A DNA stretch of 64,000 nucleotides, taken from positions 992,001 to 1,056,000 of the forward strand of contig AL929603.2 in the NCBI GenBank assembly GCA_000002445.1. Reading direction: 5' to 3'. A model generated the notes under the pieces. The model made no database searches and had not been told where the DNA came from. It saw only the letters and a list, made by a program, of their open reading frames with translations. Shown one piece after another: positions 1,521-63,190 of this stretch (the stretch's first letter is position 1; each line of letters begins with the position of its first letter). Source of the stretch: Trypanosoma brucei. Lineage: Eukaryota. Both the position numbers and the translations under genes were made by a program.

Positions 1521-1536
1521 CTTGTTTTGTTTCTAG
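1521..1536 (+). promoter_or_regulatory. Polypyrimidine tract plus AG trans-splice acceptor upstream of the ESAG11-like gene
   Basis: cttgttttgtttctAG lies 8 nt before the ATG at 1544. The identical element precedes the paralogue at 27645. Confidence 0.5.
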
Positions 1537-1543
1537 ATAAGTA

Positions 1544-2662: not shown

Positions 2663-2740
2663 TTCAATGTTATATTTTATGCTACGGTTCTGTTATTGGT
2701 ATTGTGCGTTTGTGATACCCACTGCTTTTTTGTGTAATGG

Positions 2741-2789
2741 AGGGGATGTGTTTTTCCTCTTTTATATCTTTTGCCACATGTGATTGTAG
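2741..2789 (+). promoter_or_regulatory. Polypyrimidine tract plus AG splice acceptor upstream of the ESAG1-like gene
   Basis: tgtttttcctcttttatatcttttgcc followed by tgtAG just before the ATG at 2793. Conserved in the copy at about 28820..28868. Confidence 0.45.
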
Positions 2790-2792
2790 GTA

Positions 2793-24652: not shown

Positions 24653-24862
24653 GTGGGGAATTTAGAGACCACCTTGTTAATCATATTTGATCCCCTCATC
24701 GCACCTTTTGCTGCTGGACAACCGCCTTCAGTACTTGCTGAAATGATGTCCAATATCACTTCACTTTACTTTCGTTTCAACGAAGTCCACAGGAGTTTCA
24801 CTTCGCTGCTGTTCGACACGGGTAGCATTGATAATGTGAAAAGCACTAATTCTACCATCTGA
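24653..24862 (+). pseudogene. ESAG1-like C-terminal fragment (truncated pseudogene)
   Basis: Encodes ...DPLIAPFAAGQPPSVLAEMMSNITSLYFRFNEVHRSFTSLL..., matching only the last 60 or so residues of the ESAG1-like genes. No N-terminal portion lies upstream. Confidence 0.55.
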
Positions 24863-27468: not shown

Positions 27469-27644
27469 TTTGCTTCTACGTTACCTATTATATTATGTTT
27501 TCTTTTGTTTTTTTCGCTTCTTTGTTGCTGCGTCTATGTGGTATAATATGCTTATGTATGTATGTTCATATGTGTGTTAATTTCTCATGAGATGTGAATG
27601 TTTTAAATTATCCCATATAAACTTGTTTTGTTTCTAGATAAGTA

Positions 27645-28739: not shown

Positions 28740-28871
28740 TTCAATGTTATATTTTATATGCTACGGTTCTGTTATTGGTATTGTGCGTTTGTGATACCCA
28801 CTGCTTTTTTGTGTAATGGAGGACATGTGTTTTTCCTCTTTTATATCTTTCGCCACATGTGATTGTAGGTA

Positions 28872-29855
28872 ATGAAAGTTACGATAGCGGAATTGGTTGT
28901 TTTGTTATTTTCTGTAATTTGTATTGATGGGAAGGAGGAGAATGGGTGCACGTTGATAACAGATTATCACGGTGACGCACCTTTAAGTGAGTCCGTATGT
29001 TATCTCAGTTGTCTTTCAGATGCATTAAATAAATTATACGCTGATGGAGAGAACAAACTGTTTGTGAATGAGGAAGTGTATGCAAATGCATTTCGTATAT
29101 TGGATGATATGGAAGGAAGAACAGGTGAAAGTGTTAGATATTTGAGTATTATTAGCGGTGTAATGGAAGGGAAACATGATAAATTGAAAAAGCTTATATC
29201 GTATGGAAATGCAATGGGGGACCTTGTAGCTAAGGCAGGTGGATTATTTGCTGAGGTTAATGAAAGTGTGAGGGCAGTGAGGAAAGAAATACCTGGTGCC
29301 CTTATAAAAGTGAATAAATATTATACGGCTATTGCTGTGATCACAAGGACTGTGTGGGATGATGTTGAGGCATTGGAGCGTGACAGTGATCCGAACTGCC
29401 ATGGCGAAAAAATTAAAAATGTTGGTGAGTTCCAAGTTACGTGTGGCGAACATTTCTGCCCACTAAAAGAAGGTGTTAACGAAAGTACTCTTCAGAAATA
29501 TAAGGATGGATGCCTTGAAATAAATGTTCAAGATAAGTCTGGCCAAATAAGTGAATGCCTTAACTTACCAAGGAATAGTTTGTACAAAAATGGCGCAGTA
29601 AAGTATTCAAGTGACGGAACGAATTGGTATGGAAACGGTAATACTTATTTTCAACTCAAACTCCACGTTCATAGTATGCTTTCCCCTCTCACAATTCCCC
29701 TTGGTGCTGGCCAACCACCTTCTGCACCCCTAGACATGATGGCTAGTATTACTTCCCTGTACTCTCGCTTCAACGAGATACACAAAAACTTTACTTCATT
29801 GCTACTTAACACCAATTTTACTGGAATTGTGAATAGTAGTAATTCCGATTTTTAA
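28872..29855 (+). CDS. ESAG1-like membrane glycoprotein (copy 2)
   Basis: 327 aa. The N-terminal 130 or so residues are near-identical to copy 1, while the central and C-terminal regions diverge (mosaic). Confidence 0.6.
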   Translation: MKVTIAELVVLLFSVICIDGKEENGCTLITDYHGDAPLSESVCYLSCLSDALNKLYADGENKLFVNEEVYANAFRILDDMEGRTGESVRYLSIISGVMEGKHDKLKKLISYGNAMGDLVAKAGGLFAEVNESVRAVRKEIPGALIKVNKYYTAIAVITRTVWDDVEALERDSDPNCHGEKIKNVGEFQVTCGEHFCPLKEGVNESTLQKYKDGCLEINVQDKSGQISECLNLPRNSLYKNGAVKYSSDGTNWYGNGNTYFQLKLHVHSMLSPLTIPLGAGQPPSAPLDMMASITSLYSRFNEIHKNFTSLLLNTNFTGIVNSSNSDF

Positions 29856-40144: not shown

Positions 40145-41116
40145 ATGAAGGTTGCCGTTTTTCAATGGTTAATTTGGGCATTTTTAATGGCTTGTGCTTG
40201 CGGCAAGGATGACTATACGTTGGTGACTGATCATGAAGGTGACGCGCCTTTAAACGAGTCCGTATGTTATCTCAGTTGTCTTTCAGATGCATTAAACAAC
40301 TTATACAGCGATAGTGAGAAGAGGCTGTTTGTGAATGAGGAAGTATACGCAAATGCATCTCGTATATTGGATGATATGGAAGGAAAATCAGGTGAAAGCA
40401 CAAAGTATTTGAGTGTTATTAGTAGTGTAATTTCAAAGCAAAATGATAAATTGGAAAAACTTATATCTTATGGAAATGAAATGGGGGACCTTGTAGCTAA
40501 TGTGGGTGGATTATTTTCTGAGGTTAATGAGAGTGTGAGGGCAGTGAGGGAAGTATTGCCAAGTGCTCTCATAAGAGCGAATAAATATTATACGGCTATT
40601 GCTGAGATTGTTAGGACAGTGTGGGATGATGTTAACAGGCCTTTGAAACAAGATGAGGCTAAATGCGGAAATCAAAACTTTGGAAGCGTTGGGGAACCGA
40701 AAAACGAGTGTGTTTACCGCACGTGTCCACTGGGAGACGGTGTGAGTGAAGACACTCTTCAGCACTATAAGAAAGGTGGTATTGAAATAAACGTTCAAAC
40801 AGGTTCCGTAAGCGAATGCTTTAATAGACCAAGGGACAACTTATATAGGAACGGTGCAGAAAAGCATTCGAGTGATGTGCTAAAATGGCTTGAGGGTGAA
40901 ACCACCCGTTTACAACTTACGGTTGAAGTGCAAAAAATATTTGGTCCCCTCATCGTACCTTTTGCTGCTGGACAATCGCCTTCTGCACTTCGTGCGATGA
41001 TGTCCAATATCACTTTCCTCTATTCCCACTTTAAGGAGGTCCACAGCAATTTTACTTTAATGTTACACGACACCAACATTACTGATAATTTGAATAGTAC
41101 TCATTCCACCATTTGA
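40145..41116 (+). CDS. ESAG1-like membrane glycoprotein (copy 3)
   Basis: 323 aa with an N-terminal signal anchor (VFQWLIWAFLMACAC), the conserved SVCYLSCLSDALN and PFAAGQSPSAL motifs. Its 3' flank is related to those of the other copies. Confidence 0.6.
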   Translation: MKVAVFQWLIWAFLMACACGKDDYTLVTDHEGDAPLNESVCYLSCLSDALNNLYSDSEKRLFVNEEVYANASRILDDMEGKSGESTKYLSVISSVISKQNDKLEKLISYGNEMGDLVANVGGLFSEVNESVRAVREVLPSALIRANKYYTAIAEIVRTVWDDVNRPLKQDEAKCGNQNFGSVGEPKNECVYRTCPLGDGVSEDTLQHYKKGGIEINVQTGSVSECFNRPRDNLYRNGAEKHSSDVLKWLEGETTRLQLTVEVQKIFGPLIVPFAAGQSPSALRAMMSNITFLYSHFKEVHSNFTLMLHDTNITDNLNSTHSTI

Positions 41117-47807: not shown

Positions 47808-48794
47808 ATGAAGGTTGTTATTGTAGAGTTAGTGATTTCATTATTGCTTGTAGTTTACGTTTGTGGGGCGGAAGAAGACGGTACTTGCAGGTTGGTGGCA
47901 GATTCTGGGGGACACTCACACTTAAATGAGTCCGTTTGCTATCTCAGTTGCCTTTCGAGTGCGTTGAATAAATTATACACTGATGGTGAGAGGAAAATGC
48001 TTGTGAATGAGGAAGTATATGCAAATGCGTCTCGTATACTGGATGATATGGAAGGTAAAACAGGTGAAAGCACAGAGTATTTGAGTGTTATCAGCGGTGT
48101 AATGGAAAGTGAACATGATAAATTGGAAAAGCTTATAACTTATGGAAATGAAATGGGAGATTTTGTAGCTAAGGCAGGTGGATTATTTGCTGAGGTTAAT
48201 GAGAGTGTGAGGGAAGTGAGGAAAGTATTACCCAGTGCCCTCATGGAAGCAAATAAATACTATGCAGCCATTGCTGAGATTACAAGAACTCTTTGGGATG
48301 ATGCTAAGGCGGTGAAGAGCGACGATGAGGAAGTCTTACAGTGTAGAAACGGGAAAATTATAAGTACAGGGGAGTTTGCAGTCAAGTGTAGCGCCCATAC
48401 GTGTCCACTAGAAGCCAATGTGACAGAGAGTAACCTCAAAATGTACAAGGATGGCTGTCTCGAAATAAATGTAATGGGTGGTTCTGTTAGCAAATGCTTC
48501 AATTTACCAAGGAATAACTTGTATATAAGCGGTGCAAGAATTAATTCGAGTGGTGTGTTGGAATGGTTTGAAAACGGTGCCTCCTTTTTTCGACTTATAG
48601 TCAAGGTTCAGGACATCTTCGCACCCCTTATCGCACCTTTTGCAGCCGGGAAACCGCCCTCTGTACTTCTTACAAAGATGACAAATATCACTTCCCTTTA
48701 CTCTCAATTTAACAAAGTTCACAACAACTTTACTTCGCTGCTGCTCGAAAACAATATCACTGGGAATGTGAATAAAACAAGATCAAGCTTCTAA
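47808..48794 (+). CDS. ESAG1-like membrane glycoprotein (copy 4)
   Basis: 328 aa with an N-terminal signal anchor (VIVELVISLLLVVYV), the conserved SVCYLSCLSSALNKLY and PFAAGKPPSVL motifs, and no C-terminal tail. Confidence 0.6.
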   Translation: MKVVIVELVISLLLVVYVCGAEEDGTCRLVADSGGHSHLNESVCYLSCLSSALNKLYTDGERKMLVNEEVYANASRILDDMEGKTGESTEYLSVISGVMESEHDKLEKLITYGNEMGDFVAKAGGLFAEVNESVREVRKVLPSALMEANKYYAAIAEITRTLWDDAKAVKSDDEEVLQCRNGKIISTGEFAVKCSAHTCPLEANVTESNLKMYKDGCLEINVMGGSVSKCFNLPRNNLYISGARINSSGVLEWFENGASFFRLIVKVQDIFAPLIAPFAAGKPPSVLLTKMTNITSLYSQFNKVHNNFTSLLLENNITGNVNKTRSSF

Positions 48795-49524
48795 CAAGTA
48801 CGTTTATATACATTTTCTCCTGTCTACTGATGTTTTTGCATACATGCTTTTGTGCGAGTTCGCACGGGTACACGTACTTAACAATTTTTGTTGTTATTGA
48901 CATGCCATGTTTTCATGAAAAAAATCTTTTCTAAACCTTTTGTAGTGTAAGTGTAATTACATCTCGATTAATGGAATACATGTTATTCTTCTGTGTGCCT
49001 AGTAAGACATATTTCTGGTAGCTTACCTTTCAGAGCTTTTCTTTTATCGTAGGAGTTGAAAAATATGTAGGGAATGAGAGTGAAGCATTGGCGAGAATAG
49101 CGATTAATCAGTTGCCGCGTTGCGACGTTGGATCCGGGGAATGCGACATAGGTGTGATTCGCCAGTTGTCGCCCTTTCTTTACTAAATTTTGTAGGCGCA
49201 CCACTGTTTCTTTTCCCTTTTTCGTAGCTGCCTCAGCTATTCTTAGGGTTTCTGTTGCTTCAAAGTTTGTCTATCCAGTTTTCTGTTTTCAAAGCGGCTG
49301 CTGCCTTGTTTTCCGTCAGCTCTCTGAAGTCAGCGCGCCCTTCGTTGGTTGCCGAGCCACAATTGTCAGCCGTTGGTTTTGTGCCGAGGTAAACTAAGGC
49401 GCCGCTGACCGTTTTTTTGTCTTTTTGTTGTCGCATGTTTGCTGTTTTTGTGTTTTTGCTGCGCTTGTTTCTTTTGCAAACCTGACTCTTGTGCTAATGC
49501 TGCCGCTACTGCGCAGGTGTCTGC

Positions 49525-50130
49525 CTATAGGAGCTTTTGTTCCGGGCCGTCAGAGCCTGGTTTTATGTGCAGCTCCTCAAGCTTTTTCAGTAACGCCGGT
49601 GAGTCAGCGCCCGCAACGTCTCCGAACAAACCTTTGATTATCCTGGTAAGTTTTGTCGTTTCTGTAACGTCCTTGTTGCCGACAGGTTCCTTGATTGCAT
49701 CTGCTAGCCCCGCTGCTGGCGCCTCCGTATTGATGATACTCTTGGTGTCGGCAGTTGTTGTAAATGCCAGTGCCGCCGTCTCCGCAAATACCGTATCTAG
49801 GTCGGTGAGGGTGGACTTGTGTTGCTTCACGCCTTCGAGTTCTCCTATTTTGCTGCCGCAGTTTCTGTCGCCGGCTAACTCGCTAGTCGATGTTCTACAC
49901 GAACCAGCACCGAATCTGATGGCACCGTGTGGTGGTTGCCCTTGTAAAAATTTGATGCCGTGGACCGTTTTAAAGGTGCAGTCGGCCCCCGTTTGTGTGT
50001 TTGCCGTTGCAAATTTTCCCTGTGTATTGGTGAGCTCAGGCGAGCTCCTGCAGCCGCCTATATGTCCAGCTACGGCGGCTGCACCTCCCGCAATTAAGAT
50101 GTAGCTGTTGGCTGTGTCGGTGTTGTCATT
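49525..50130 (-). pseudogene. VSG-like N-terminal-domain fragment, apparently truncated at its 5' side by the ingi insertion
   Basis: By manual translation the minus-strand frame stays open from about 50190 down to 49525. It encodes an Ala/Thr/Gly-rich sequence (…CGSKIGELEGVKQHKSTLTDLDTVFAETAALAFTTTADTKSIINTEAPAAGLADAIKEP…LLKKLEEL…) that resembles the N-domain of the intact VSG in this window. The overlapping plus-strand ORF (49439..50104) is low complexity and judged non-coding. Confidence 0.3.
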
Positions 50131-50145
50131 CTGTTTCCGCTGGCG

Positions 50146-52629
50146 ATGCTGGCCACATCAAGGTGGTGCCAGGGTCCAGTACCCCGTATCATCGGGGGAA
50201 GCCAAGAGCCAGCAGCGTTCCTTTCATGGGGAACAATGCTTTGCTTCGGCTACGGCATCATACAGCACAGGGATCAGCAGCGTCTTGCTGGGACACCGTT
50301 TTTCATTTGTTGGTCCCTGGGCACGTGCCAGCGTGCCATCAGCAGTATCATCCGCACTAAGATGCTGCTGTCCGGTGATGTGGAAGAGAATCCCAGCCCG
50401 TCGTTGCGCGGGATGCAGTGGAACTGCGCCGGGCTATCTCAAGGAAAGAGATTAGCACTCCACAAAACCCTTGTTGATGAGCGGATCGCCTTTTGTCTGT
50501 TGAGCGAGACAAGGATGACGCCTGGAGAGGCGGCTTGCTTTAGCGTTGCTGGCTGCCAACATCACGGAAAAGCTCGTAACTGCAAAGGAGGTGGTGTATC
50601 AATACTAGTGAGGGAGGACCTACCAATCGAGACAGGTATGGCTGTTGTTGGTCGCATTGAACAAGTGCATGCAACAATTCACCTTGCACGTGAAACGGCA
50701 CTGACCGTCACGTCGGCATACATCCCACCAAAACACACCTTCACGGCAACTGACCTAGATACGCTTCTTACGACTGACGGTGCCCAGCTCATCGGTGCAG
50801 ACGCTAACGCACACGCGTTGGCATGGGATCGCGCGAGCCCACCAAATACCAAGGGTGAAACCCTCACACAGTGGTGCATTGACAACCAGTTTCTGGTCTG
50901 CAACACTGGTGAGTGCACCAGGTACGCGCGCCACCACGGGGAGTCCACCCCTGATGTGACACTGTCAAGGAATTGCACAGTGTACACGTGGACATCGCTG
51001 TATTCTCCCGATAGCGATCACCATCACATATTTTTCGACGTTATCGTTGGAGACGACACAGATGCACTGAGTTGCCCGCAGCTTCGAAAGCCCATGTACG
51101 CATGGCTAAAAGCTAACTGGAGGAATTTCCGTCTCAAGGTTGACGAGCTCTGCAGGAAAATTGGCAGAGAGAAGAACGTCAACACCCTGGAACAGAAATT
51201 GAGCTCCGCCATCCGCACTGCGACGAAGGTCTCCGTCCCCCGTGGCTGCAGAGCAACGCCACCACATTGGACACCTGCGCTCGCGAAACTCGATGAAGAG
51301 ATCGCTGGATGCGGACCCTCCTACCGAAGGGAAAAGTTGGTAGCCACGCGTAAGCAGATCCTGGACCGTACCACAAAGAAGAGATGGAGCACGCTATGCT
51401 CCAGACTTGCGGTGTCAGACCGCTGCAGTTGGCACATTGTCAAGAAGGTATATGCGCCACGACCACTAACCACACTGACGGTACTGGTTGATAACGTGGC
51501 CATCACAGACTACCGTCAAGCTGAGAGGTTCAGTAAACTGTACTTGTCCCGCGCAAGAAGGCACCCCGACTCACACCCACCGGCACCAATAAAGACGATA
51601 GCGAGTGAGTTCAGTCCCATCACGATGGCTGAACTACGGAGATCGATCAAACTGCTTCCGAGTGGATCCGCAGCCGGACCTGATTGCTTACACAACGAGG
51701 CACTGCAACATCTCGGTAGAACAGCGCTGAATGTTGTTCTGAGGCTATTCAATGAGAGCCTACGAGCGGGAGTCGTGCCGCCTGCATGGAAGACTGGTGT
51801 TATCATCCCCATCCTGAAGGCCGGAAAAAAGGCGGAGGACCTCGAATCTTACAGGCCTGTGACGCTCACGAGCTGTCTCTGCAAAGTCATGGAACGCATA
51901 ATTGCCGCGAGGCTTAGAGACACTGTTGAGTCCCAGCTGACGCCGCAGCAATCAGGCTTTCGCCCCGGATGCTCAACGCTCGAACAACTGCTGCACGTCC
52001 GCGCTGCCCTCTGCCGTCCCACGCACCAATATCGTACGGGTGCTGTATTCGTTGACTACGAGAAGGCATTCGATACAGTAGACCACGACAAAATTGCGAG
52101 GGAAATGCACATAATGAAGGTATCACCCCACATTGTGAAGTGGTGCGTATCATTTCTGAGTAACCGAACTGGCAGAGTGAGATTCAAGGAGAAGCTTTCC
52201 AGAAGCAGAACATTTGAGCGAGGAGTGCCACAAGGAACTGTCCTTGGCCCAATCATGTTCATTATTGTCATGAACTCGTTGAGCCAACGCCTTGCAGAAG
52301 TGCCGTTACTGCAGCACGGATTCTTTGCAGACGACCTGACGCTACTTGCGAGACACACAGAGAGGGATGTCATCAACCACACACTACAATGCGGTCTAAA
52401 CGTGGTGTTACAGTGGTCAAAAGAGTACTTCATGTCTGTCAACGTAGCGAAAACGAAGTGCACACTCTTCGGGTGTACAGAGCGCCACTTCCTTACATTG
52501 CAACTGGACGGCGAAAGAATAGGAGCTGACAGGACACCGAAGCTTCTAGGAGTAACATTCCAGTGTCTGCAAGGGATGGGAACACATGCGGCCGAAACGA
52601 GATGCAAGATGGACTTCAGACTACTGTAG
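50146..52629 (+). pseudogene. ingi ORF segment 1 (2A-like peptide, endonuclease, reverse transcriptase)
   Basis: 827-aa segment ending at an in-frame TAG. It continues in the same frame at 52714. Confidence 0.8.
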
Positions 52630-52713
52630 ATAGCAGCCATCTCAGCTTCTACATGGGGGCCAAGACGATAAGTACTGAGAGCTTTTTATCTAGCACTCGT
52701 ACAGGCACACACC

Positions 52714-54228
52714 ATGTATGGCATTGAGGTATGGTACTGGGACGCTTCGGAACGAAGTCGCGACCTCCTTGCATCAGCACAACACAAAGCCAGTTGCATC
52801 ATAGCTGGCATACCACATGGGACGCGCAAAGAGGACTCTCTGCTGGAAGCAAACATCCTGCCACTCAAGACGGCCACTCTTGTGCGCAGCATGAAATTCG
52901 TGCTGATGTGTGAGTCACGAGGCGGATGTTTGCGGCGCAGTGCTGAAGAAGTATACCACAGCAAACACCCAGTCAGAGCCCTACATTCCCGCATCATGCG
53001 GTCCTATCCCCACCTCCGCATTGAGCCACGCGAGAACCCACTAGAGACATCGACGCTCCGCCACAGCTGCCGACCGCTATTTCACACGCAGATAAAGCCT
53101 GTGTGCGCTGGTGACCCTGACGATGTCAAAAGGGAGGCTTCCGAAAAGTGGATTGAACGGCATTTTGCACGGAGGGGGAAGGAGCCACCGCGGCGAGAGC
53201 ACTACGAATTGTGGACTGATGGATCCGTGTCCCTCGGTGAGAAGTCCGGAGAAGCTGCCCTTCTCTATAGAAACAACACGCTGATTTGCGCACCCAAAAC
53301 TGGAGCAGGGGAACTCTCATGCAGTTACAGAGCGGAATGCGTAGCATTAGAGATAGGACTGCAACGGCTGCTGAAATGGCTTCCGGCATACAGAAGCACA
53401 CCGAGCAGGTTGTCCATCTTCTCTGACTCGCTGTCAATGTTAACAGCACTGCAGACAGGCCCCCTAGCCGTAACGGACCCAATTCTGAGACGACTATGGA
53501 GGCTTCTGCTTCAAGTTCAGAGAAGGAAGTTGCGTATCCGACTGCCATTTGTGTTTGGCCATTGTGGCGTGAAACGGAATGACGTTTGCGATGACATGGC
53601 GAAAAAGGCCACTGATTTACCACAGTTGCGAGACACATTGATCCCCGACATCATTGCTTATGCGAAGCGAGTGATTAGGTCGGAAGAAGTCCATGAGAAC
53701 ACTCATAGGTTTGGTATCACGGGAAACCACTTTCCAACAAAACATAAAGAAGAACTGACGAGGGAAGAAGAAACGGCACTGGCACGCTTTCGAGTTGGGT
53801 CTTCAAGACACTATGGATGGATGTTGCGAAAGATCAACCCGAGTGTGCCTCCACAGTGCCGATGGTGCAACCCGCAACATGCAGAGATAGGGCCAACAAT
53901 ACAAACGGCCCCAACTGTTGCGACACACACTCTTCAGAGAACCTCCGAACCAACTAAATGTACGGAATGTGATGCCACATACCAATGCCGCTCGAGTGCT
54001 GTAATGCATATGGTAAACAAACATGGCTTTGTGCGAGCTGATGCCCTCCGGAGGATCAAATACGGCGATGCAACACCCGCAGTGGACATCCCCCCGGAGC
54101 CCCCTCCAGTGGTGGCGATCGTTCCTCTACCATCGAGCACACGAGTCCCAATGAGACCGCAGGTGCTTCATTGTACCCTTCTGTGCCTCCAAATTCGCAG
54201 TGCCAGGCCGACTATTACACCACCTTAG
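52714..54228 (+). pseudogene. ingi ORF segment 2 (RNase H domain and first C2H2 fingers)
   Basis: Same frame as segment 1. Contains the RNase H motifs and CTECDATYQCRSSAVMHMVNKHGF. Confidence 0.75.
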
Positions 54229-54754
54229 AACAATACATGGCATAGGCAGCGGTAGTTGCCGCGTGAAAAGGGGGCGAGAGAACGAAGACTCATTGCAAGG
54301 AGATGGTAGAGCCCCAGCAGCGCCAGCCTCTCAGGATACACGGAAGCTGCCGTTTCAATGTGACCTGTGCGAGGCGAGCTTCGGTACACGTTCTTCCCTG
54401 TCACTACACAAGAAATTCAAACATAAAAGCATAGTGACGGAGGACGGTAACTTTGTGGCGGTGGTGCAATTCCCTCGTAAGCGTGCCCGTGAGGGAAACG
54501 TTGACGTCCCGGGGAAAGGCGAGGTGCAGTGTGGTGTGTGCCAAAAAGTGCTCAGTTGCAGGGACTCCCTCATCCGACACTGCAAGGCTTTCTATAAAGG
54601 TGAGGAAGTCGAACTTAAATACAGCAAGAGCACAAAATTGTGTGCCACTGATTCCCCGCATACAAACGCATCCATGTTGGTTTGCCCGACATGCGGGAGG
54701 CGTGTGCTAGCAAAACTGGCCTCACCCTACATCAAAAGAAGATGCACGGTATGA
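54200..54754 (+). pseudogene. ingi ORF segment 3 (C2H2 zinc fingers), shifted +1 relative to segment 2
   Basis: FQCDLCEASFGTRSSLSLHKKFKHK and CGVCQKVLSCRDSLIRHCKAF. It overlaps segment 2 by about 29 nt in a different frame. Confidence 0.7.
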
Positions 54755-56002
54755 AGGTAGAGCGCGCTGTTACCAGCCAACGCGGCGACTGCGAAGAAAC
54801 GTCGCTGCACTTGATGAGCTGTCCCGGTTTGAAGGAGTTACGTGTCAGGTTTGCGGTAGAAGGCGTGTGTGTGCAGGATGTATGTTTCTCTAAAAGGCTG
54901 GCGCAGTTTCTCATTGCGGTTGAACGGAGCCGGCCGCAGGTGAAGTCCTCACCTAAGGTAACAGTCATACAACCCACTCTCCCTTCTGCAACTTCCCCCC
55001 TTATTGCCGAGTGTGGAGCTAGCAGGAAAAGCACCGGACGCAGGAATAGTCCAGACACCCTTAGAGACAGAGGGGGTATGCAATCAACAAGCAACAGAAA
55101 CAGAAAGAGGGAGAGAGAATAATAAACTAATAACAAAAGTCAAAACAAAAGGATTGCTAATTGACATCTTTGGGAGAGTCCGGGGTTGGGGGCTTCTCGC
55201 CCCATCTGCTGTATTCCGTTCAACTGCGGAGCTACAACAAAAATTATAGAGGTGTTAGGCTTAATAAAAAAAGGGAGACTCTGCCACAGTCGCCAGACCG
55301 ATAGCATCTCAGGGCTCTACGGTGATAGCTGATGGCCGCGCCAGTGGGGGGAAACTCCCACGAAGGCACGAAGAAAATTCCAAAAAAAAATCTTTCGAGG
55401 TTGGTTGCTTGTCTGTGAGGGTTAGGTCTCCAGTTCTTTGAAAGCGGTTTAAGGTTGTTGACAATTTTTTGTATGTATTCACTTGTTTTTTCTTTAAGTG
55501 TTCCCCAGCTTCTTGGCGTATGTCTGCTTTTTAGATGACTGGACCTCGCTGAGCTGTTATTTTCGACGTTGAACGTCTGGTGTACTGGTTGCCATTGCTG
55601 GCAGCTGTACCGCTGAGCTTGTCCGTCGGCCAGGGTGTTTCTGTCTGCTCTTTTGTCGCTGGTTGTGGCTGAGGTCGTATTTTAAACCCAAAGGCGAAAA
55701 TCTTCAAAACCGACAACTTTTCTGATGCTATTGGTTTTGGAGTTTGCTGTAGTGGAGTCATCCTAATCCTCTGATGTTGGTCGCTGCGCTTCCGTTTTTA
55801 ACTCTGTCTCAACGAAAATAGGTATTGTATTTTAACGCAACAATATCCTTGGGAGCCGGTGCACCTGCAAGTCCTGAGCTAACTCAGCATTTAAATTTTA
55901 CAGTTTCTGAGTATTAAAAACATTTCTCGCTTCAAAAGGTCAACCACTAACACTTTCATAACCAATATCTAACTTCTCTCCATGTAGCGCACAAGTTTTC
56001 AG

Positions 56003-56987
56003 TTATCCTAGATTCTGGTTTCTAAATTCCTTTCTCTCAAACTTGTTATGCCAAGTTAAGTTTGTCATAATTTCTTTTGCCCTTTTCTGCCAAGAGAACG
56101 CGTTTCCTGCTAGATGAAGTAATTCTGCTTCTCCAATGGCGCCGCTGACGTGTATGGAAAAGAAACGCTCTTCGTAATCCAATCCAATTATTCTTGGTAA
56201 AAGAAGTCTCGTGCCGATATTTTGCTCTTTGTACACACTCCAAAGAAGTAACGGCATATATATGCTCCGCTCTGACCACTACTCATCGCTCATTTTATGC
56301 ATTTCATTAAACGCCTTTCCAAACATTCTGAATGCCCAAACTCTTGCTATTATATCACCACCATTCAAGTATGCTTTTTGATTTGCAGGCCACTTAATTA
56401 AATGCGTTAGGTTCAGCCGCTCTTCCACCAAGTAAGAGACTTTGAAAAACCACGCGCACCTCTCTATATGGCCTCTCTGTTTTGATTTCAAAATCAAATC
56501 CAACTGAGGCGCATAACACTCAGCTGCCGACATGAATAGAATAGGGTAAAATTGTTTCTCTTTTAAATTATCATCTTCTCTAAAATTCTCTTCATTTGCA
56601 GTAGTATTTTAAATATTCTACCGCATTCTCATACTTATTTTCATCATAAGAAATAACATCAGATCCGTCTACAGTTATTACAATATCCTCATCACTTGTA
56701 TTCTGTTTCTCCAAAAACTCCATGACCCATCTAGGCCTCTTAACATGACTGTACAAAGCTCCCATTTCAATTGTAATAATTTCGACATTGCTTAGTTTCG
56801 CACTCAATATGAGCCTACACCATCCTTGCGTTGCATGAGTTTGAACTCCAACCACAAATACTCTTGGGTTCTTAGGATAATTCTGTGTTGTGTTTTTTGT
56901 GTCATCGTTATCAAGAGATACGGCGCTTACACACACTAAATGTAATAGCAATGGTAATGATAAAGCTCTCGAGATACCAAATTTCAT
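56003..56987 (-). pseudogene. Frameshifted ESAG3-like(?) pseudogene. The family assignment is tentative.
   Basis: Four consecutive minus-strand ORFs in alternating frames (56987-56592, 56533-56279, 56279-56046, 56257-56003) together encode about 340 aa. It begins with a signal peptide (MKFGISRALSLPLLLHLVCVSAVS) from the ATG at 56987. ESAG3-related pseudogenes are typical neighbours of VSG cassettes. Confidence 0.3.
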
Positions 56988-57839: not shown

Positions 57840-58170
57840 GTAGTTTTTCTTTACCATGCATATCACAGTATTAGTATATACACACTCACAACACCATCCT
57901 ATCATTATTATTATAACCATAACTAATATGCACGAAATAAACAAAATAATATTAATTATAATAAGACCCATTTTTAATACCCTATTACTATATTTTTTGA
58001 AACCCACATGCCACTTTTATATACACATTACTAAATGTATCATTTTAAAATTTTTCTTAAATTTTTATATTTTCTCAAAGTTTTAAAAAAAGTATTAAAA
58101 TATTCTTATAAAATAGCAGAATCTCATAAATTTCATAAGATTGAGCATAACGCTTTTACCAATAATTCTT
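57840..58170 (-). repeat. VSG 3' flank block including the 70-bp unit, duplicated at about 61190..61620
   Basis: Shared strings include cacactcacaaca…c(t)atcattattattataaccata(g)ctaat and cttaaatttttatattttctcaaag / atcaaatttctcaaagatc. Confidence 0.6.
57855..57935 (-). repeat. Single degenerate 70-bp-repeat unit, downstream of the VSG at 58169
   Basis: The minus strand reads TTATAATAATAATGATAGGATGGTGTTGTGAGTGTGTATATACTAATACTGTGATATG. This matches the TAA/TGA-run plus GTGTTGTGAGTGTGT(G)(C)ATATAC core of the T. brucei 70-bp repeat as recalled. Confidence 0.55.
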
Positions 58171-59560
58171 AAAAGTCACACGCTAGAATAAAAAACGCAA
58201 GCCAAAGAGGAGCCTTTTTAATGACAAAAGAATTGCTTCCTGTGGTGTTTGTGGTTCCGGTTTTCTCTTTGTTTTCATCCTCTCCCTTCTTTTTTGGTGT
58301 GCAAACTCCCTCTACCATAACGCAAATCCTTGTGCAGTCGGTTCCATTTTTGTCACTGCATTCCTTATTTTGTTCTTCTTCAGCATTTTTGTTTTTAGTT
58401 TCTTTTTCCTCCTCACTTTTTAATTCTTTTAGCAGTAGTCTTGCTACGGAGTCGCCAAGTTGTCTCATAGTTGTGACGCTGTTTAGTGCTGTATTTTGTT
58501 CCTTGCCATCGCCGGTTACGGGGACTTTAATATCGTCGACTAGTTGCCACACGTTAGTGGCGAGCTTTTCGCCTGTTTGACCATATGCATCCTTTGTGGC
58601 GGCTTGGGCCTGCTGATCTCCTGTATCTATCGATTCTTTGTCGTACAGCCGCAATAGCGCCTTTGTTGCTAGTTTGCCGAATACTTGTGTTCCGGACAAT
58701 GCTGAGTACTCCCTTAGATCTTTTGAGCATGACTGGTTTTGTAGCAGCTGTTTTGCGGCTGTGAAGTTGGCGTTTACTTTCTTTAGTAGGTCGCCTGTTA
58801 TTTTTAGTGGCGTGACCTCGAGATTGATGCCGTTCTCTAGGCTCGTCCCAAGTCTGCTGGCTGCTGTCCCTTGATTTTGTGCTGGCCCGCCTGTGAGCTC
58901 TAGTTCGACGAAGCCATTTTCTGCTATCTGCGTGCTGTGGCAGCTGGCTGCGCCGTTGTGCGTGCATTTGTAGACGACTTTTAAGGCGTATGCTTGCTCC
59001 GGCAGCGCCGGCTGTTTCGCTTCGGTTGCTTTATCTATTTGCAGTAGGTCTTCACTGTCAGTCAAGCTTGGACACGGCTTGTCGTCTCGTGCCGCGAGTG
59101 CCGACGGCGTCGGGAGCTGTGCGAACGGTGTGCCGCCCGTTGCTGTTACTTTGAACCGTCTTGACGTCGCCGTCATCGCATCCATAATCTTCCACGAGCG
59201 GGTCAGCTGATTTACGCCTTCCGTTAGGTCTTTCGTTTGTTTCTGTAGCTTGTCGGGAAGGTCTGCACATTCTTCAAGGATTTCCCCGCCGGCCGCTATT
59301 ACAGGCACAAGCTTGCGTTTTAGGTTGGCGTCACCTACTGTTGCCGCCACAATAAGTTTGTTGTAGTTTTCGTGGTTGCTTCGCTGTTGGCTGGCTGCCG
59401 ATGCGTACGTAATTTCATACAGATTTAAGCGTTTGTGAGTGCGAGCGATGCACGCGCACAGGTTTGCGCATGCCGCGTCGTCCGCCGGCTTTTCCGTTTG
59501 CGCGCGCCGTGATGTACTTAGGACCATTATCCCTATTAATACCTGTTGCGGCAATGTCAT
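58169..59560 (-). CDS. VSG: Variant surface glycoprotein, apparently intact. The ATG start is at 59560; the track's 59584 start is a TTG.
   Basis: 463 aa with a signal peptide (MTLPQQVLIGIMVLSTS), an Ala/Thr/Gln-rich N-domain with spaced Cys, and a C-terminal domain with the CTRICVMVEGVCTPKKK cysteine motif. The GPI signal is type-2-like (GSNSFVIKKAPLWLAFFILACDF). A 70-bp-repeat unit lies about 1.7 kb upstream (61240..61310) and a degenerate 16-mer-like element about 80 nt after the stop. Confidence 0.8.
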   Translation of the reverse strand: MTLPQQVLIGIMVLSTSRRAQTEKPADDAACANLCACIARTHKRLNLYEITYASAASQQRSNHENYNKLIVAATVGDANLKRKLVPVIAAGGEILEECADLPDKLQKQTKDLTEGVNQLTRSWKIMDAMTATSRRFKVTATGGTPFAQLPTPSALAARDDKPCPSLTDSEDLLQIDKATEAKQPALPEQAYALKVVYKCTHNGAASCHSTQIAENGFVELELTGGPAQNQGTAASRLGTSLENGINLEVTPLKITGDLLKKVNANFTAAKQLLQNQSCSKDLREYSALSGTQVFGKLATKALLRLYDKESIDTGDQQAQAATKDAYGQTGEKLATNVWQLVDDIKVPVTGDGKEQNTALNSVTTMRQLGDSVARLLLKELKSEEEKETKNKNAEEEQNKECSDKNGTDCTRICVMVEGVCTPKKKGEDENKEKTGTTNTTGSNSFVIKKAPLWLAFFILACDF

Positions 59561-61239
59561 GGTTTTGTCTAGTGCTGTTTCCAAGCTTGGGCTGCAAAAA
59601 AAAAAATGGCGGACGGTGTGAACAATCTTGCTGCTTACAGGTAAACTTCGTCGTTTGCCTTTGTTTTCAAAAAAATTACAAAGCTTATTTCACTCTTCCA
59701 CGTTGGTGCGTAGTAGTGACTCAGCTTTAGGTGCCACCGATCTCACCATTTCTTATTTGTACTTAGGGTGCTTCGCTTTTGCCGAGCAGCATGCACGTTT
59801 ATTTAGTATCATTTTTCACGTGCTGCCCTAATTAAGCGTCGCCGGTGTTGGAGGGCTTCGTTCTTCTGCGTACTTTGCTAGTTTTAATTTCACGACAAAG
59901 TCCTTGTTAGATATTTACCTCCGATTGCCATTCAATCTTAGTTGTCTCAATTACGATTGTATTCTCTTCCACTCTTCTCTCCTCTCCTTTATTTACTCTG
60001 CAACAATCTGGTCCCTCCAAGAATGCGCATCTGCGTTGTGTTTTTCTTCCGTTCTGGAAATTTTGTAAAAATGCAGATGGTTTAGTTCATTTATTTTCAT
60101 GTGAGCGCCAATTGGTCTTTTATTACTGTACTTCTTATTTTAAGCTATTTCGATATCTATTGTGCCTGTCGTATCTAGCCGCTATTCCATTCATTTGGAT
60201 CTTTAAAATTACGTATATGTTAGGACACCTAAAACATTTAACGCTTTTTTGTTTCAGTGGCCTCTAGTACGCTCCACTTGCATCTGGCTGCATGTCGCTG
60301 AAATGACGACATTACTCTGAAGATTCTGTCACATGACCGACCTTGTATATTTTTAGTTGTTTTTTGTCACAAGCTTACTCTGCTTCTCTTTCATCCATTT
60401 GAAGCTTTGGATATGATTTTGCCTTTCACCCCTTTTTCTTTGTTTGTGTCTCCGTGGCAGCTTTGCATTACCGAGAACTCTTACCTGAATTGGACGATCT
60501 AAGGACGTCCTAAACTGCTAGCACTTGCACCAATAGCGCAGAAATGGGTTTCTCTTGTTAATTCCCGCCACTTTGACAACCACCCTGACAGCTTATACAT
60601 TGGGTATTTTAGGCAAATCCCCAGAATTTTTGTTTTTCTTCTTCTTCTGCTCTCCACGCTAACTCATTATAAGCCACAGTTTGAAAATGTTACTTTGAAT
60701 AATATTATATTGTTTGCCACAAAGTGTTCGTCATTATTTATATATCTAATAAAAAACTTAGGTATTACCTCACATATACGAAAAACCCTCTTCCTCATGT
60801 TGCCTTTGCTTCTTCACCGCTTATCACTATGATTCACAAGCATTTTAAAAAACATAGACTATACTGTCATCACCGCAGTAGCATCCATAGATATTTTAAG
60901 TAAATCACAGAGAAACATTGACAATTCCTCTTCCTTCTGATGCACTATCTGCTTTTTCCTCTTCCGCCCCTACCTCTGTGGATAGCCTAGCGACTTTCTC
61001 TTTCCTATAAAATAAACTTCCTTTTTGCGACTATCCCCTCTATCATCTCCTTGTGCGTATTACCATCAAAATAATGCAGTATGAAACTCCGCACATATCA
61101 TCTTCATCATTTCCGTCTTTTTAGCTTCCCTTTACTAACCTTCCTCTTCCTTAATGTCTCACTCGCTAACTTTCATTGCATTCCTTTTATTGTTTTAAGT
61201 GCGTCTATTTTGGCTTCCTATTGGGCTGCTACCACAACT

Positions 61240-61310
61240 CTTATCATATATTCGTATATATACACACTCACAACACACTCCTCTATCATTATTATTATAA
61301 CCATAGCTAA
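61240..61310 (-). repeat. Single degenerate 70-bp-repeat unit, about 1.7 kb upstream of the VSG at 59560 and downstream of the VSG pseudogene
   Basis: The minus strand reads TTATAATAATAATGATAGAGGAGTGTGTTGTGAGTGTGTATATATACGAATATATGATAAGAG, which contains the 70-bp-repeat core. Confidence 0.55.
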
Positions 61311-61483: not shown

Positions 61484-61500
61484 GTTTTAAAATATATAAA
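61484..61500 (-). promoter_or_regulatory. VSG 3'-UTR 16-mer-like element (the minus strand reads TTTATATATTTTAAAAC; canonical TGATATATTTTAACAC)
   Basis: Lies about 100 nt downstream of the VSG-pseudogene stop (61604..61606). An 11-nt core ATATATTTTAA is conserved. Confidence 0.45.
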
Positions 61501-61603: not shown

Positions 61604-63190
61604 AAGTGCTACAAAACTCACGAAAAAAGTAGTCATACTCAGAGCCAATTTGTTATTGACGAGAAAACTTCCATTTCGGCACATTTCTTTATCCTGTTCA
61701 GGGTTTTAACTTTTACCTTTTCTCTAGCCACAAACAGGGCTTAATTTTTCAACATTTTCTTCTTACGAGTTGCTCTATCATTGTGGAAAGTATAGGTAAC
61801 AGTAAGTGTTCCTGAATTTTGAGCTTGTGTTACAGGGAATCTGCTTTTTGAAACTTTTGATTCATTAAATTTGCACTTTTTAGTTCTGTCGGTTTCTGTT
61901 TCGTTGTAACTGCAGAAAGGCTTGTTGTTGCATTCTACTACGTCCTTAATTTTATTTCAGATGTTTTCTGGTGCTTTAGTATCTTTGCCTTGTTTTGCTT
62001 CGTAAAGTTCCTTGCTAAGGCTGGCGAATTTGATTGCGGCTTGCAGCTCATAATAGCTAACGAGTTCGGCTAGTTCATCGCTTTGCCTTGTCGTACCGAG
62101 CTTTGCTGCGCTTGTGCGACCTGCGGCGCCGCTGGGGATGTCTTCTGCAATCACTAGGTCGTTTATGTCTTTGTCTACTGTGCTCTTGTGGCCGCCAAAT
62201 GCTGTCTTGACTTCAGTTTCTACGGCACACTTGGTTGCATCTCTATTGCTCAGCAAAACATTTTTGATGACTTATGTTAGTGCGGGCCTCTGTGATAGCC
62301 TGTCAGTTTCATTTGTGAATTCACCGGCTGTCCGTGGCTGTTGGCGCTGACTTCTGACTGTCGGCTTCCGCGGCCCAAGCTGTCGCTTTGCCTTCATTGC
62401 CGCCTTCGACCGCGTCTCTGTTGCGCATTGTCGGCTAGGAGTTGCCGGCCAGTAGAGTTAGGTAGCCATCCAGTATCTCTACAGTTGCTGCAGCGCACTG
62501 TCCTCCGTTCATGAACCCGGTTGTGCCGTGAGCTGCTGGTAGATTGCACTTGTTTTTTCCCGTTGGTGCCCTGTATTTGAGTCTTACGTGTCTCCCGGTT
62601 TGCCGAACACAATACCTTTTAAGCCGGTGACACCTAAAAATTCGCTTGTTGTGCCGCCCGCTTGGAGGGATGTTAGTTTTGTGTTGCAGTCATACTTGCA
62701 GAGCTTTCCGTGTTTACGATCTGAACCCGCTGTATCCGAGTCGTTTTCAACTAGACACGCATTGTTGTTTCCATTCGCTCCTTCTAGGAGGTTAAGGTAC
62801 TCGTCGATGCGCCCTTTCAGGTGGGTGGCCGTGCGCACCGTGTCTATTTGCTTTTGGACTACGGTTTCTTTTTACACAGCTGCTGCTCTCACCGCTTTTA
62901 CGCTGTAATATGCTCGCAAAGCTGCTATCGCCTTGGTCTTTTGATGCTTTAGGTTTTTAGCGGTAAAATCTCCGTTCACGGCGGCATCGCCGAGTTCCTT
63001 CCAAACGGCCAGGACGCTGTCGAGAGATTTTAGTATCCCGTTGTTTTTGGTGTTAAGTTCGTCAGTTAGGCCGCATAGAGGCTCCCACACCTTCTTTAGC
63101 AGTCCATGTTTCTTTGTTGCGTGGACCACTGCAGGCAGCGTCAGCAGCGTGACAAAAAGTTTTATCTTGAAGTATGTGCGTTTCGAATAC
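61604..63190 (-). pseudogene. VSG pseudogene (start codon ATG>ACG, internal stops and frameshifts), type-1-like GPI signal
   Basis: The N-terminus reads (T)YSKRTYFKIKLFVTLLTLPAVVHATKKHGLL, a signal peptide with no ATG. Minus-strand ORF fragments in frames 0/0/2/0 are typical of a VSG (…AALRAYYSVKAVRAAAV…; …KFASLSKELYEAKQGKDTKAPENI). The C-terminus reads …VNNKLALSMTTFFVSFVAL*, compared with canonical NKKFALSVVSAAFVALLF. Confidence 0.65.

What the first reader, a model, noticed from the sequence alone, without database searches (positions are those of the whole stretch)
58169..59560. Intact-looking VSG with a non-canonical GPI-signal tail (…APLWLAFFILACDF) and a degenerate 16-mer
The VSG has a start, signal peptide, complete N and C domains and no internal stops, which is rare among array VSGs. 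Its C-terminal signal resembles the 17-aa type-2 signal (SNSFVI.KAPL.LAF…LLF) but carries extra residues (FFILACDF, about 21 aa after the omega Ser). The 3' UTR has only a weak 16-mer match (about 58085..58100, minus strand: …GAATATTTTAATAC…). It may need repair by segmental conversion to be expressed efficiently, or it may represent an allowed variant signal.
Basis: partly seen in the sequence, partly recalled or inferred. Interest (0 to 1): 0.55.

Follow-up and report, generated by a model that had tools for sequence, protein, structure and literature searches.

The report
Silent archive VSG, variant 3' end
This is an already annotated, intact but silent surface-coat (VSG) gene of Trypanosoma brucei TREU927 chromosome 1 whose unusual membrane-anchor signal and weak mRNA-stability motif belong to a 3' end type that recurs in archive VSG genes, so it is an ordinary member of a known class.

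Summary
Window 58169-59560 (minus strand) is an uninterrupted 463-codon VSG gene. It has all conserved cysteines, a VSG13-like A-type N-domain, a four-cysteine C-domain and a 21-residue GPI signal (NSFVIKKAPLWLAFFILACDF). It has no 16-mer within 3 mismatches; the best match has 11 of 16 bases, at 58092-58107.

The protein is identical to CAJ16737.1 / XP_001219219.1 ("VSG, putative", T. brucei TREU927, chromosome 1). The tail is not a one-off. An unrelated T. equiperdum VSG ends ...LAFLILACHF, with 83% identical signal-coding DNA and a 77% identical first 60 nt of 3'UTR. VSGs from Lister 427, EATRO1125 and T. equiperdum end ...LILA or ...FILE (18 residues). One of these has a stop codon exactly where this gene has Cys, followed by the same GACTTTTAA. 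So this tail is the 18-residue "LILA-type" form read three codons further.

About half of 67 archive type-2 tails sampled are not 17 residues long. Just upstream of the divergence lies a 61-nt block that is 57/61 identical to telomeric VSGs with perfect 16-mers. That block is a natural crossover site for the published "3' donation" route. The most likely reading is a silent donor gene that gets its signal end and 3'UTR from the expression-site VSG. This is already known biology and of low interest.

The parts
61238..61302 (-). Single 70-bp-repeat unit that marks the 5' boundary of this VSG cassette
   Evidence: The core GTTGTGAGTGTGTATATA occurs exactly twice in the 64-kb window, with none in 100 shuffles. 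Both copies are on the minus strand, 3.38 kb apart. The sequence was read. Calling it a 70-bp repeat rests on my own knowledge of the motif.
59561..61237 (-). Upstream non-coding region between the 70-bp repeat and the ATG. It contains a T11 tract (59596-59606) and an AG (59593-59592) 32 nt before the ATG, a likely trans-splice acceptor.
   Evidence: Sequence read. The splice-site role is inferred from the usual polypyrimidine-AG arrangement in trypanosomes and was not tested.
58169..59560 (-). VSG coding sequence, 463 codons plus TAA. Identical to CAJ16737.1 / XP_001219219.1 / UniProt Q4GY52.
   Evidence: Pfam PF00913 scores 28.3 bits against a cut-off of 22.1. End-to-end alignment.
59510..59560 (-). 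Probable N-terminal signal peptide (about residues 1-17, MTLPQQVLIGIMVLSTS), with a short 8-residue hydrophobic core
   Evidence: It aligns with the N-terminal hydrophobic stretch of the homologues. The model shows a helix at residues 6-17 with low pLDDT. The cleavage site was not predicted with a dedicated tool.
58451..59509 (-). A-type N-terminal domain (about residues 18-370), VSG13/VSG558-like fold
   Evidence: AlphaFold2 model with pLDDT 87-95 over the helical core. Foldseek against PDB: VSG13 6z8g/6z8h at E 1.6e-17, TM by target 0.78-0.80; VSG558 NTD at E 5e-16. Invariant cysteines C31, C35, C37, C98, C163, C199, C207 and C278.
58238..58450 (-). Hinge and single four-cysteine C-terminal domain (ECSDKNGTDCTRICVMVEGVC...TTNTTG)
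   Evidence: Alignment. 68 VSGs match this part with E up to 0.001. Expressed T. equiperdum VSG-20 (P20950) has ...CELVEGVCKP...GSNSFVIKKAPLWLAFLLF.
58196..58256 (-). 61-nt block conserved with telomeric VSGs (encodes TTNTTGSNSFVIKKAPLWLA). Proposed 3' crossover site.
   Evidence: 57 of 61 bases identical to each of two telomere-proximal T. equiperdum VSGs, L001 and L002. Both carry 17-residue tails and perfect 16-mers. The crossover role is inferred from PMC3708902.
58172..58234 (-). GPI signal of 21 residues after omega Ser442: NSFVIKKAPLWLAFFILACDF
   Evidence: The first 14 residues are identical to those of expressed T. equiperdum VSG-20.
58172..58192 (-). Deviant end of the signal (FILACDF). 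Cys461 (TGT, 58180-58178) sits where a related VSG has a stop codon.
   Evidence: Compare L005 ...ATTCTAGAATAAGACTTTTAA and L003 ...ATTCTAGCATGCCACTTTTAA with this gene's ...ATTCTAGCGTGTGACTTTTAA.
58109..58168 (-). First 60 nt of the 3'UTR, shared with the T. equiperdum VSG that has the LILACHF tail
   Evidence: 77% identity with L003, against about 60% further downstream and 58% in the preceding C-domain coding DNA.
58092..58118 (-). Degenerate 8-mer-like (TGCTATTT, 58111-58118) and 16-mer-like (AAGAATATTTTAATAC, 58092-58107) elements
   Evidence: The 16-mer-like element matches 11 of 16 bases. The joint occurrence of the 8-mer-like element and the core ATATTTTAA is seen in 5e-5 of shuffles.
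57861..57918 (-). Next 70-bp-repeat unit, marking the 3' limit of this cassette

Best explanation
This is a silent, structurally intact archive VSG cassette in the chromosome 1 subtelomere of T. brucei TREU927. Its layout is: one 70-bp repeat, 1.7 kb of upstream sequence, the ORF, a short A+T-rich 3'UTR, and then the next 70-bp repeat.

**The 3' end.** Its 3' end is a recurrent archive type that I call LILA-type here. After ...PLWLAF the coding sequence continues ATT CTA GCG. Related genes then have a stop codon, giving 18-residue signals ending ILA or ILE. This gene has Cys (TGT) at that position and reads three more codons to a conserved second stop (GAC TTT TAA), giving 21 residues. The module also carries its own A+T-rich 3'UTR. 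In that UTR the 8-mer/16-mer block that stabilises VSG mRNA has decayed to 11 of 16 matches.

**How it is most likely used.** Because the 16-mer is needed for functional VSG mRNA levels, the gene is probably expressed by duplicative gene conversion into a telomeric expression site. The conversion would start at the 70-bp repeat. It would end inside the 61-nt block (58196-58256) that is 93% identical to telomeric type-2 VSGs. The hydrophobic end of the signal, the stop codon and the 3'UTR with its 16-mer would then come from the resident VSG. This is the published '3' donation' route.

**Shown here:** intactness, fold, tail format, the shared module, the stop-versus-Cys relation, the degenerate 16-mer, and the conserved block.

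**Inferred:** that the gene is silent in place, where the conversion ends, and that its own 3' end would not support full expression.
For: **Identity and intactness**
- Exact match to an annotated TREU927 chromosome 1 VSG.
- Intact ORF with conserved cysteines.
- VSG13-like N-domain model.

**The 3' end is a shared module**
- The tail format is shared with P0055 of T. equiperdum, whose N-domain is unrelated: only the last 183 residues align, at 27% identity. Its signal-coding DNA is 83% identical and the first 60 nt of UTR 77% identical.
- L005 has TAA at the position of this gene's TGT, followed by the same GACTTTTAA.
- 18-residue ...LILA tails occur in Lister 427 VSG-573 and VSG-639 and in EATRO1125 1125.238 and 1125.427.

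**16-mer and 3' flank, by gene position**
- The telomere-proximal VSGs L001 and L002 have 17-residue tails and perfect 16-mers 35 and 52 nt after the stop.
- The others have degenerate ones: this gene at 5 mismatches, L003 (which is followed by a 70-bp repeat) at 6, and L004 at 4.
- The 61-nt block is 57/61 identical to L001 and L002.

**Literature**
- Scrambling the 16-mer cuts VSG mRNA half-life from about 114 to about 20 min and abolishes functional expression (PMC5698767). CFB2 action depends on the 16-mer (PMC8051951).
- In TREU927 infections, 57% of unique expressed VSG sequences showed 3' donation. In 25% of those the boundary lay within the GPI-signal coding region. Local homology at boundaries was above 85% over 13-143 bp, median 57 bp (PMC3708902).
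- A donor with an atypical GPI signal was expressed without that signal ever appearing in the clones (PMC3708902).
Against: - No expression data for this gene were found, so use by 3' donation is an inference.
- The 16-mer here is not scrambled. It keeps the 9-nt core ATATTTTAA, and nobody has tested whether such a variant binds the stabilising factor.
- The signal keeps omega Ser, omega+2 Ser and omega+7 Lys, and has a longer hydrophobic stretch. Published mutagenesis found VSG signals tolerant of substantial change (Bohme and Cross 2002, as summarised in PMC11298655).
- Microarray and proteomic data suggest that some 'atypical' VSGs are expressed (PMC2771046).
- The contrast between telomeric and array 3' ends rests on only a handful of loci.
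Confidence: 0.72

Rival explanations
1. The gene is fully competent as it stands. On this view the 21-residue tail is an allowed GPI signal and the variant 3'UTR is sufficient. A complete copy, with its own tail and UTR, could then form a working coat once placed in an expression site.
For: - The omega, omega+2 and omega+7 residues and the spacer are canonical. The hydrophobic part is longer than usual (LWLAFFILAC).
- The tail format recurs in a second subspecies, and the 18-residue relatives occur in three strains. This could reflect tolerance or selection.
- Mutagenesis of VSG signals showed little sensitivity (PMC11298655, citing Bohme and Cross 2002).
- Some atypical VSGs give mRNA or peptides (PMC2771046).
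- The record names this gene 'VSG, putative' rather than 'atypical', whereas P0083 with a 21-residue tail is named 'atypical'.
Against: - There is no 16-mer within 3 mismatches. The 16-mer is essential for functional VSG levels (PMC5698767, PMC8051951).
- All sequences found with this tail family are genome-derived. None is a known expressed VSG.
- The 90% identity cluster of this protein has a single member, so no near-identical expressed clone is in the protein collection.
- Recurrence of the module is equally explained by duplication and gene conversion among silent paralogues.
Confidence: 0.2
2. The odd tail is a sequencing or assembly error, or it hides a frameshift, so the gene is really canonical or really a pseudogene.
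For: The divergence starts in a run of T residues (GCGTTTTTTATT), a typical place for length errors.
Against: - Independent genes in another assembly (L003, L005) carry the same ATTCTAG...GACTTTTAA arrangement in the same frame.
- No single-base shift restores a canonical ...LLF stop. This is from my own reading of the three frames of the sequence.
- The rest of the ORF aligns without frame breaks to a 70% identical VSG.
Confidence: 0.03
3. It is not an antigenic-variation VSG at all. Instead it would be a VSG-related gene transcribed in place with another role, like the chromosome-internal VR genes.
For: It lies next to a block of ESAG-like and VSG-related genes, and it points in the opposite direction to them. 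Some atypical or VSG-related genes are expressed in all stages (PMC2771046).
Against: - It has the full cassette anatomy of an archive VSG, with 70-bp repeats on both sides.
- Its neighbour is a degenerate VSG pseudogene in the same orientation.
- It has ordinary VSG relatives in other strains at 70% identity.
- Its N-domain is a typical A-type domain.
Confidence: 0.05

Closest known systems
The gene itself: T. brucei brucei TREU927 chromosome 1 'variant surface glycoprotein (VSG), putative', CAJ16737.1 / XP_001219219.1 / UniProt Q4GY52
   Same: 100% identical over all 463 residues. The source contig of 1,064,672 bp matches the size of chromosome 1.
   Different: Nothing differs. The public record gives no comment on the tail or the 16-mer that I could see.
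'Atypical' VSGs of the TREU927 archive (the VSGdb / Marcello and Barry classification), for example EAN80670.1 with tail ...LAFLLDFINL
   Same: An intact ORF whose GPI signal departs from the 17- or 23-residue forms seen in expressed VSGs. The 3' flank is A+T-rich with a degenerate 16-mer (PMC1868767).
   Different: This gene is not labelled atypical in its record. Its tail belongs to a different sub-type, ATTCTAG... rather than a deletion that runs into CTCGATTTTAT.
T. equiperdum OVI VSG SCU68440.1 (P0055), tail ...SSFVIHKAPLFLAFLILACHF
   Same: The same 21-residue format. Signal-coding DNA is 83% identical and the first 60 nt of 3'UTR 77% identical. It has no 16-mer (best match 6 mismatches). 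A 70-bp repeat follows downstream.
   Different: The N-domain is unrelated. Omega-1 and omega are Ile-Ser rather than Gly-Ser.
18-residue 'LILA' tails: Lister 427 VSG-573 and VSG-639, EATRO1125 VSG 1125.238 and 1125.427, and T. equiperdum P0015 (...FILE)
   Same: The same ...LAF(L/F)IL(A/E) continuation after the conserved PLWLAF. In P0015 the DNA after the stop is the same GACTTTTAA.
   Different: They stop three codons earlier. DNA was available only for P0015.
Expressed T. equiperdum VSG-20 (P20950) and canonical type-2 signals (SNSFVI.KAPLWLA[VF]LLF)
   Same: The C-domain is of the same type. The signal is identical up to omega+14 (NSFVIKKAPLWLAF).
   Different: VSG-20 ends LLF at 17 residues. 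This gene ends FILACDF at 21.

Membership tests
T. brucei VSG (A-type N-domain, single four-cysteine C-domain) | A-type N-terminal domain fold with conserved cysteines | tested here: met
   PF00913 scores 28.3 bits against a cut-off of 22.1. Foldseek finds VSG13 at E 1.6e-17 with TM by target 0.78-0.80. Eight cysteines are invariant.
T. brucei VSG (A-type N-domain, single four-cysteine C-domain) | N-terminal signal peptide | tested here: inconclusive
   A hydrophobic stretch VLIGIMVL aligns with the signal peptides of the homologues. No dedicated predictor was available, and the hydrophobic core is short at 8 residues.
T. brucei VSG (A-type N-domain, single four-cysteine C-domain) | C-terminal domain with four (or eight) cysteines | tested here: met
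   The pattern is C-x7-C-x3-C-x6-C at residues 401-420, aligned with the homologues.
Functional (expressed-type) VSG | GPI signal of 17 or 23 residues with omega Ser/Asp/Asn, omega+2 Ser and omega+7 Lys (PMC11298655) | tested here: not met
   Omega Ser, omega+2 Ser and omega+7 Lys are all present, but the length is 21 residues.
Functional (expressed-type) VSG | Conserved 16-mer TGATATATTTTAACAC in the 3'UTR | tested here: not met
   No match with 3 or fewer mismatches. The best match has 5 mismatches. The control loci L001 and L002 have perfect copies.
Functional (expressed-type) VSG | Evidence of expression (cDNA, VSG-seq or protein) | not testable with these tools
   The protein's 90% identity cluster has one member. 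No chromosome 1 donor turned up in the held supplements of PMC3708902. No read data could be searched.
Archive (array) VSG cassette | 70-bp repeat upstream of the gene, and cassettes arranged head to tail | tested here: met
   Two repeat units lie on the same strand, 3.38 kb apart, flanking the gene. A VSG pseudogene lies upstream in the same orientation.
'Atypical' VSG (VSGdb sense) | Intact ORF that does not convincingly encode a maturable VSG, because of a deviant GPI signal or cysteine pattern (PMC1868767) | tested here: met
   The gene meets the criterion on signal length. However, the public record names it 'VSG, putative' and not 'atypical'.
LILA-type 3' module (a grouping defined here) | ...CTTGC(G/A)(G/T)TTTT(T/G) ATT CTA G.. 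continuation, a second in-frame stop (G/C)AC TTT TAA, and no 16-mer | tested here: met
   Shared with L003 and L005 at the DNA level, and with five ...LILA proteins at the protein level.

The most novel reading that the evidence does not exclude
The LILA-type 3' module may be a maintained third class of VSG C-terminal signal rather than decay. It comprises an 18- or 21-residue signal plus its own A+T-rich 3'UTR, in which the 8-mer-like element is followed by a variant 16-mer with the core ATATTTTAA. On this reading it would be functional for GPI addition and would carry a variant stabilising element. Some archive VSGs could then be expressed complete with it.
Probability: 0.08. Interest if true: 0.45.

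Novelty: already known. Interest (0 to 1): 0.14.

Why it matters
It matters little beyond bookkeeping. The gene is annotated. Intact VSGs with non-standard GPI signals are a described class. The route by which such genes are used (3' donation) is published with numbers from this very strain.

The one small addition is that this particular tail is not random damage. It is one state, stop replaced by Cys, of a 3' module shared by unrelated archive VSGs in T. brucei and T. equiperdum. If someone wanted to test how much variation the trypanosome GPI transamidase and the 16-mer-binding machinery tolerate, this natural module would be a convenient test sequence.

Tried and rejected
**Searches that gave nothing**
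- The search for homologous proteins with the C-terminal 104 residues: 3 candidates, none scored.
- The same tool with an alignment of 36 C-terminal regions: 426 candidates, none scored. A larger census of tails, including cDNA-derived VSGs, was therefore not possible. The tail statistics rest on the 68 hits of the representative search.
- The look-up of encoding contigs did not hold the TREU927 loci. I could not read beyond the window towards the telomere or collect more TREU927 array 3' ends.

**Papers**
- Hall et al. 2003 (chromosome I), Marcello and Barry 2007 and Cross et al. 2014 are not in the held library. What I say about them is from memory and is marked as such.
- A text search for Tb927.1.53* found nothing. 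I did not establish the Tb927 gene number.

**Ideas considered and dropped**
- A simple frameshift origin of the tail: no single-base shift gives a canonical end.
- A chimera with the 23-residue signal class of the neighbouring pseudogene: similarity is limited to TTTAGAATTAT, whereas L003 and L005 give a far better match.
- A tandem duplication of LAFF(I)/LACDF: only 9 of 15 bases agree, which is not convincing.
Full report
**What is there**

On the minus strand an ORF runs from ATG at 59560 to TAA at 58171-58169. It has 463 codons and no internal stop.

An exact-sequence look-up shows the protein is CAJ16737.1 / XP_001219219.1 / UniProt Q4GY52. This is 'variant surface glycoprotein (VSG), putative' of Trypanosoma brucei brucei TREU927, on a contig of 1,064,672 bp. 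Two other proteins of the window (an LRRP and an ESAG1) are on that same contig.

The rest of the window fits a T. brucei subtelomere:
- ESAG1 and VSG_B-domain (ESAG2-like) genes and an LRRP lie on the plus strand.
- A retroelement with endonuclease, reverse transcriptase and RNase H domains lies at 50146-54228.

From memory, the chromosome I paper (Hall et al. 2003, NAR) describes one chromosome end with about 50 kb of ESAGs and pseudogenes, where the telomere-proximal VSG points away from the telomere. That would fit this window, but I could not open the paper and the window shows no telomere repeats.

**Is the gene intact?**

Yes, on every test I could run.
- It aligns end to end with eleven other VSGs. 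The nearest is ARB50682.1 of T. brucei, 70% identical over 99% of the length.
- Eight N-domain cysteines are invariant across the twelve sequences. The four C-domain cysteines (C-x7-C-x3-C-x6-C) are kept.
- Pfam's A-type VSG model passes its threshold, weakly: 28.3 bits against 22.1.
- An AlphaFold2 model built on that alignment has pLDDT 87-95 through the long helices.
- Foldseek against the PDB finds VSG13 (E 1.6e-17, TM by target 0.78-0.80) and the VSG558 N-domain, followed by other A-type VSGs.
- The N-terminus has a short hydrophobic stretch aligned with the signal peptides of its relatives. I could not run a signal-peptide predictor.
- A T11 tract and an AG lie 32 nt before the ATG, as expected for a trans-splice site. 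This is inference.

**Cassette anatomy**

The core of the 70-bp repeat (GTTGTGAGTGTGTATATA) occurs exactly twice in 64 kb. Both copies are on the minus strand, at 61238-61302 and 57861-57918, which is 3.38 kb apart. No copies occur in shuffles. One copy lies 1.7 kb upstream of the ATG. The other lies 250 nt after the stop.

Upstream of the first repeat lies another VSG in the same orientation (about 61604-63130). It is broken into at least four frames, ends in a 23-residue-class signal, and carries a 16-mer with two mismatches at 61484-61499. So the finding is one of two head-to-tail archive cassettes. One is intact and one is dead.

**The tail**

After omega Ser442 the sequence is NSFVIKKAPLWLAFFILACDF, 21 residues. 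The expressed T. equiperdum VSG-20 (P20950) has NSFVIKKAPLWLAFLLF. It is identical for the first 14 residues and then ends at 17.

A full HMMER scan of 1.84 billion representative proteins with the last 104 residues returned 68 VSGs. I could delimit 67 type-2 signals in the pooled protein set: those hits, the earlier full-length hits, cluster members, and this gene itself. Their lengths were as follows.

| Signal length (residues) | Number of VSGs |
|---|---|
| 17 | 35 |
| 18 | 12 |
| 21 | 6 |
| 12-16 | 4 |
| 23-58 | 10 |

Departures from 17 are therefore common in archive-derived VSGs. [quoted passage not shown]

Within that variation this tail has clear relatives.
- Five proteins end ...LAFLILA or ...LDFLILA: Lister 427 VSG-573 and VSG-639, EATRO1125 1125.238 and 1125.427, and one unnamed.
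- One T. equiperdum VSG (SCU68440.1, P0055) ends ...LAFLILACHF, the same 21-residue format.

**DNA comparison**

P0055's locus (L003) reads CTTGCGTTTTTGATTCTAGCATGCCACTTTTAAGAATTATTGATAAAAGC. The window reads CTTGCGTTTTTTATTCTAGCGTGTGACTTTTAAGAATTATTGGTAAAAGC.

| Segment (this gene against L003) | DNA identity |
|---|---|
| Signal-coding 69 nt | 83% |
| First 60 nt of 3'UTR | 77% |
| Further downstream in the UTR | about 60% |
| Preceding C-domain coding DNA | 58% |

The two N-domains are unrelated.

A third locus, L005 (T. equiperdum P0015, tail ...FILE), reads ATT CTA GAA TAA GAC TTT TAA. It has a stop exactly at the codon that is TGT (Cys) here and TGC in L003, followed by the same GAC TTT TAA.

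The 18- and 21-residue tails are therefore two states of one module. They differ in whether codon 19 is a stop. Which state is ancestral cannot be told from three sequences.

**The 16-mer**

- No match to TGATATATTTTAACAC with 3 or fewer mismatches lies in this UTR.
- The best match is AAGAATATTTTAATAC at 58092-58107, with 5 mismatches. That level alone is reached in 53% of shuffles of this 80% A+T UTR.
- It is preceded by TGCTATTT (58111-58118), which is 7 of 8 against my recollection of the conserved 8-mer. It also contains the exact core ATATTTTAA. The pair occurs in 5e-5 of shuffles. I read it as a decayed copy of the 8-mer/16-mer block.

Comparison with other loci:
- Two T. equiperdum VSGs followed by TTAGGG-like repeats (L001, L002) have 17-residue tails and perfect 16-mers 35 and 52 nt after the stop.
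- L003, which is followed by a 70-bp repeat, has its best match at 6 mismatches.
- The 'atypical' P0036/EAN80670.1 type (L004) has its best match at 4 mismatches.

This sample is small.

**How it most likely works**

The 16-mer is essential. Scrambling it cuts VSG mRNA half-life from about 114 to about 20 min and prevents functional complementation (PMC5698767). The stabilising factor CFB2 acts only when the 16-mer is present (PMC8051951). A full copy of this cassette placed in an expression site would therefore probably under-produce VSG, whatever its GPI signal does.

The block 58196-58256, which encodes TTNTTGSNSFVIKKAPLWLA, is 57/61 identical to the telomeric L001 and L002. Similarity ends at the codon where the tail classes diverge.

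Figures from TREU927 infections (PMC3708902):
- 57% of unique expressed VSG sequences showed 3' donation.
- In 25% of those events the boundary lay within the GPI-signal coding region.
- Boundaries showed more than 85% identity over 13-143 bp, median 57 bp.
- A donor with an atypical GPI signal was used without that signal ever appearing.

The anatomy here fits that route exactly. I give this reading about 0.7.

**The main rival (about 0.2)**

The gene may be competent as it stands.
- Omega, omega+2 and omega+7 are canonical.
- The hydrophobic segment is longer than usual.
- VSG signals tolerated substantial mutation in the only systematic study (summarised in PMC11298655).
- Some atypical VSGs give transcripts or peptides (PMC2771046).

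The signal alone may well work. The missing 16-mer is the harder obstacle.

Sequencing error is unlikely, because independent genes share the arrangement. A role as a VSG-related gene expressed in place is unlikely given the cassette anatomy.

**Comparison with what is known, and novelty**

The gene is annotated. The class (intact ORF with a non-standard signal, 'atypical' in VSGdb) and the rescue route are both published. Notably, the record calls this gene 'VSG, putative', while another TREU927 VSG with a 21-residue tail is labelled 'atypical'.

The only new detail is the recognition of a shared LILA-type 3' module and the stop/Cys relation.

Noticed in passing
window 61604-63130, minus strand: A second VSG lies one cassette upstream. 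It is a pseudogene split over at least four frames, with a B-type-looking N-terminus (WEPLCGLTDEL). It ends in a 23-residue-class GPI signal (GSFLVNNKLALSMTTFFVSFVAL) and has a 16-mer with only two mismatches at 61484-61499. The dead gene therefore keeps a better 16-mer than the intact one.
   Followed up: partly
window 4-3767 and 26092-29855, plus strand: A tandemly duplicated triplet of genes: an ESAG2-like gene with a VSG_B domain (454/458 aa), a gene of 372/364 aa with no Pfam match, and ESAG1 (324/327 aa). The C-termini are near-identical in the first two pairs. Further ESAG1 copies lie at 40145-41116 and 47808-48794, with a fragment at 24662-24838.
   Followed up: no
window about 49400-54800, plus strand: A retroelement, ingi-like by my own recollection. 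Its endonuclease/reverse transcriptase ORF (50146-52629) and RNase H ORF (52714-54228) are in separate frames. It sits between the ESAG block and the inverted VSG cassettes, so it may mark the strand switch.
   Followed up: no
window 56592-56987, minus strand: A 131-aa ORF with an N-terminal signal-like sequence lies just downstream of the second 70-bp repeat, where the next cassette's gene would be. It gives only a sub-threshold Pfam match (GT_PLOD, 19 bits against a cut-off of 27). It may be the remnant of a glycosyltransferase-like or other subtelomeric gene truncated near the retroelement.
   Followed up: no
L004 11426-11494 compared with window 58120-58196: The 'atypical' tail ...LAFLLDFINL (TREU927 EAN80670.1 and T. 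equiperdum SCU71478.1) is encoded by CTCGATTTTATAAATTTATGA. This resembles the 3'UTR stretch CTCAATCTTATGAAATTTATGA of the window gene. It looks as if a deletion of about 45 nt fused the signal to the array-type UTR, which suggests a common ancestral array-type 3' flank behind several 'atypical' tails.
   Followed up: partly
window 15804-18011, plus strand: The LRRP gene is 98.5-100% identical to T. equiperdum proteins, whereas the VSG has no relative above 39% identity among the T. equiperdum proteins found. This shows the contrast in turnover between neighbouring subtelomeric genes.
   Followed up: no
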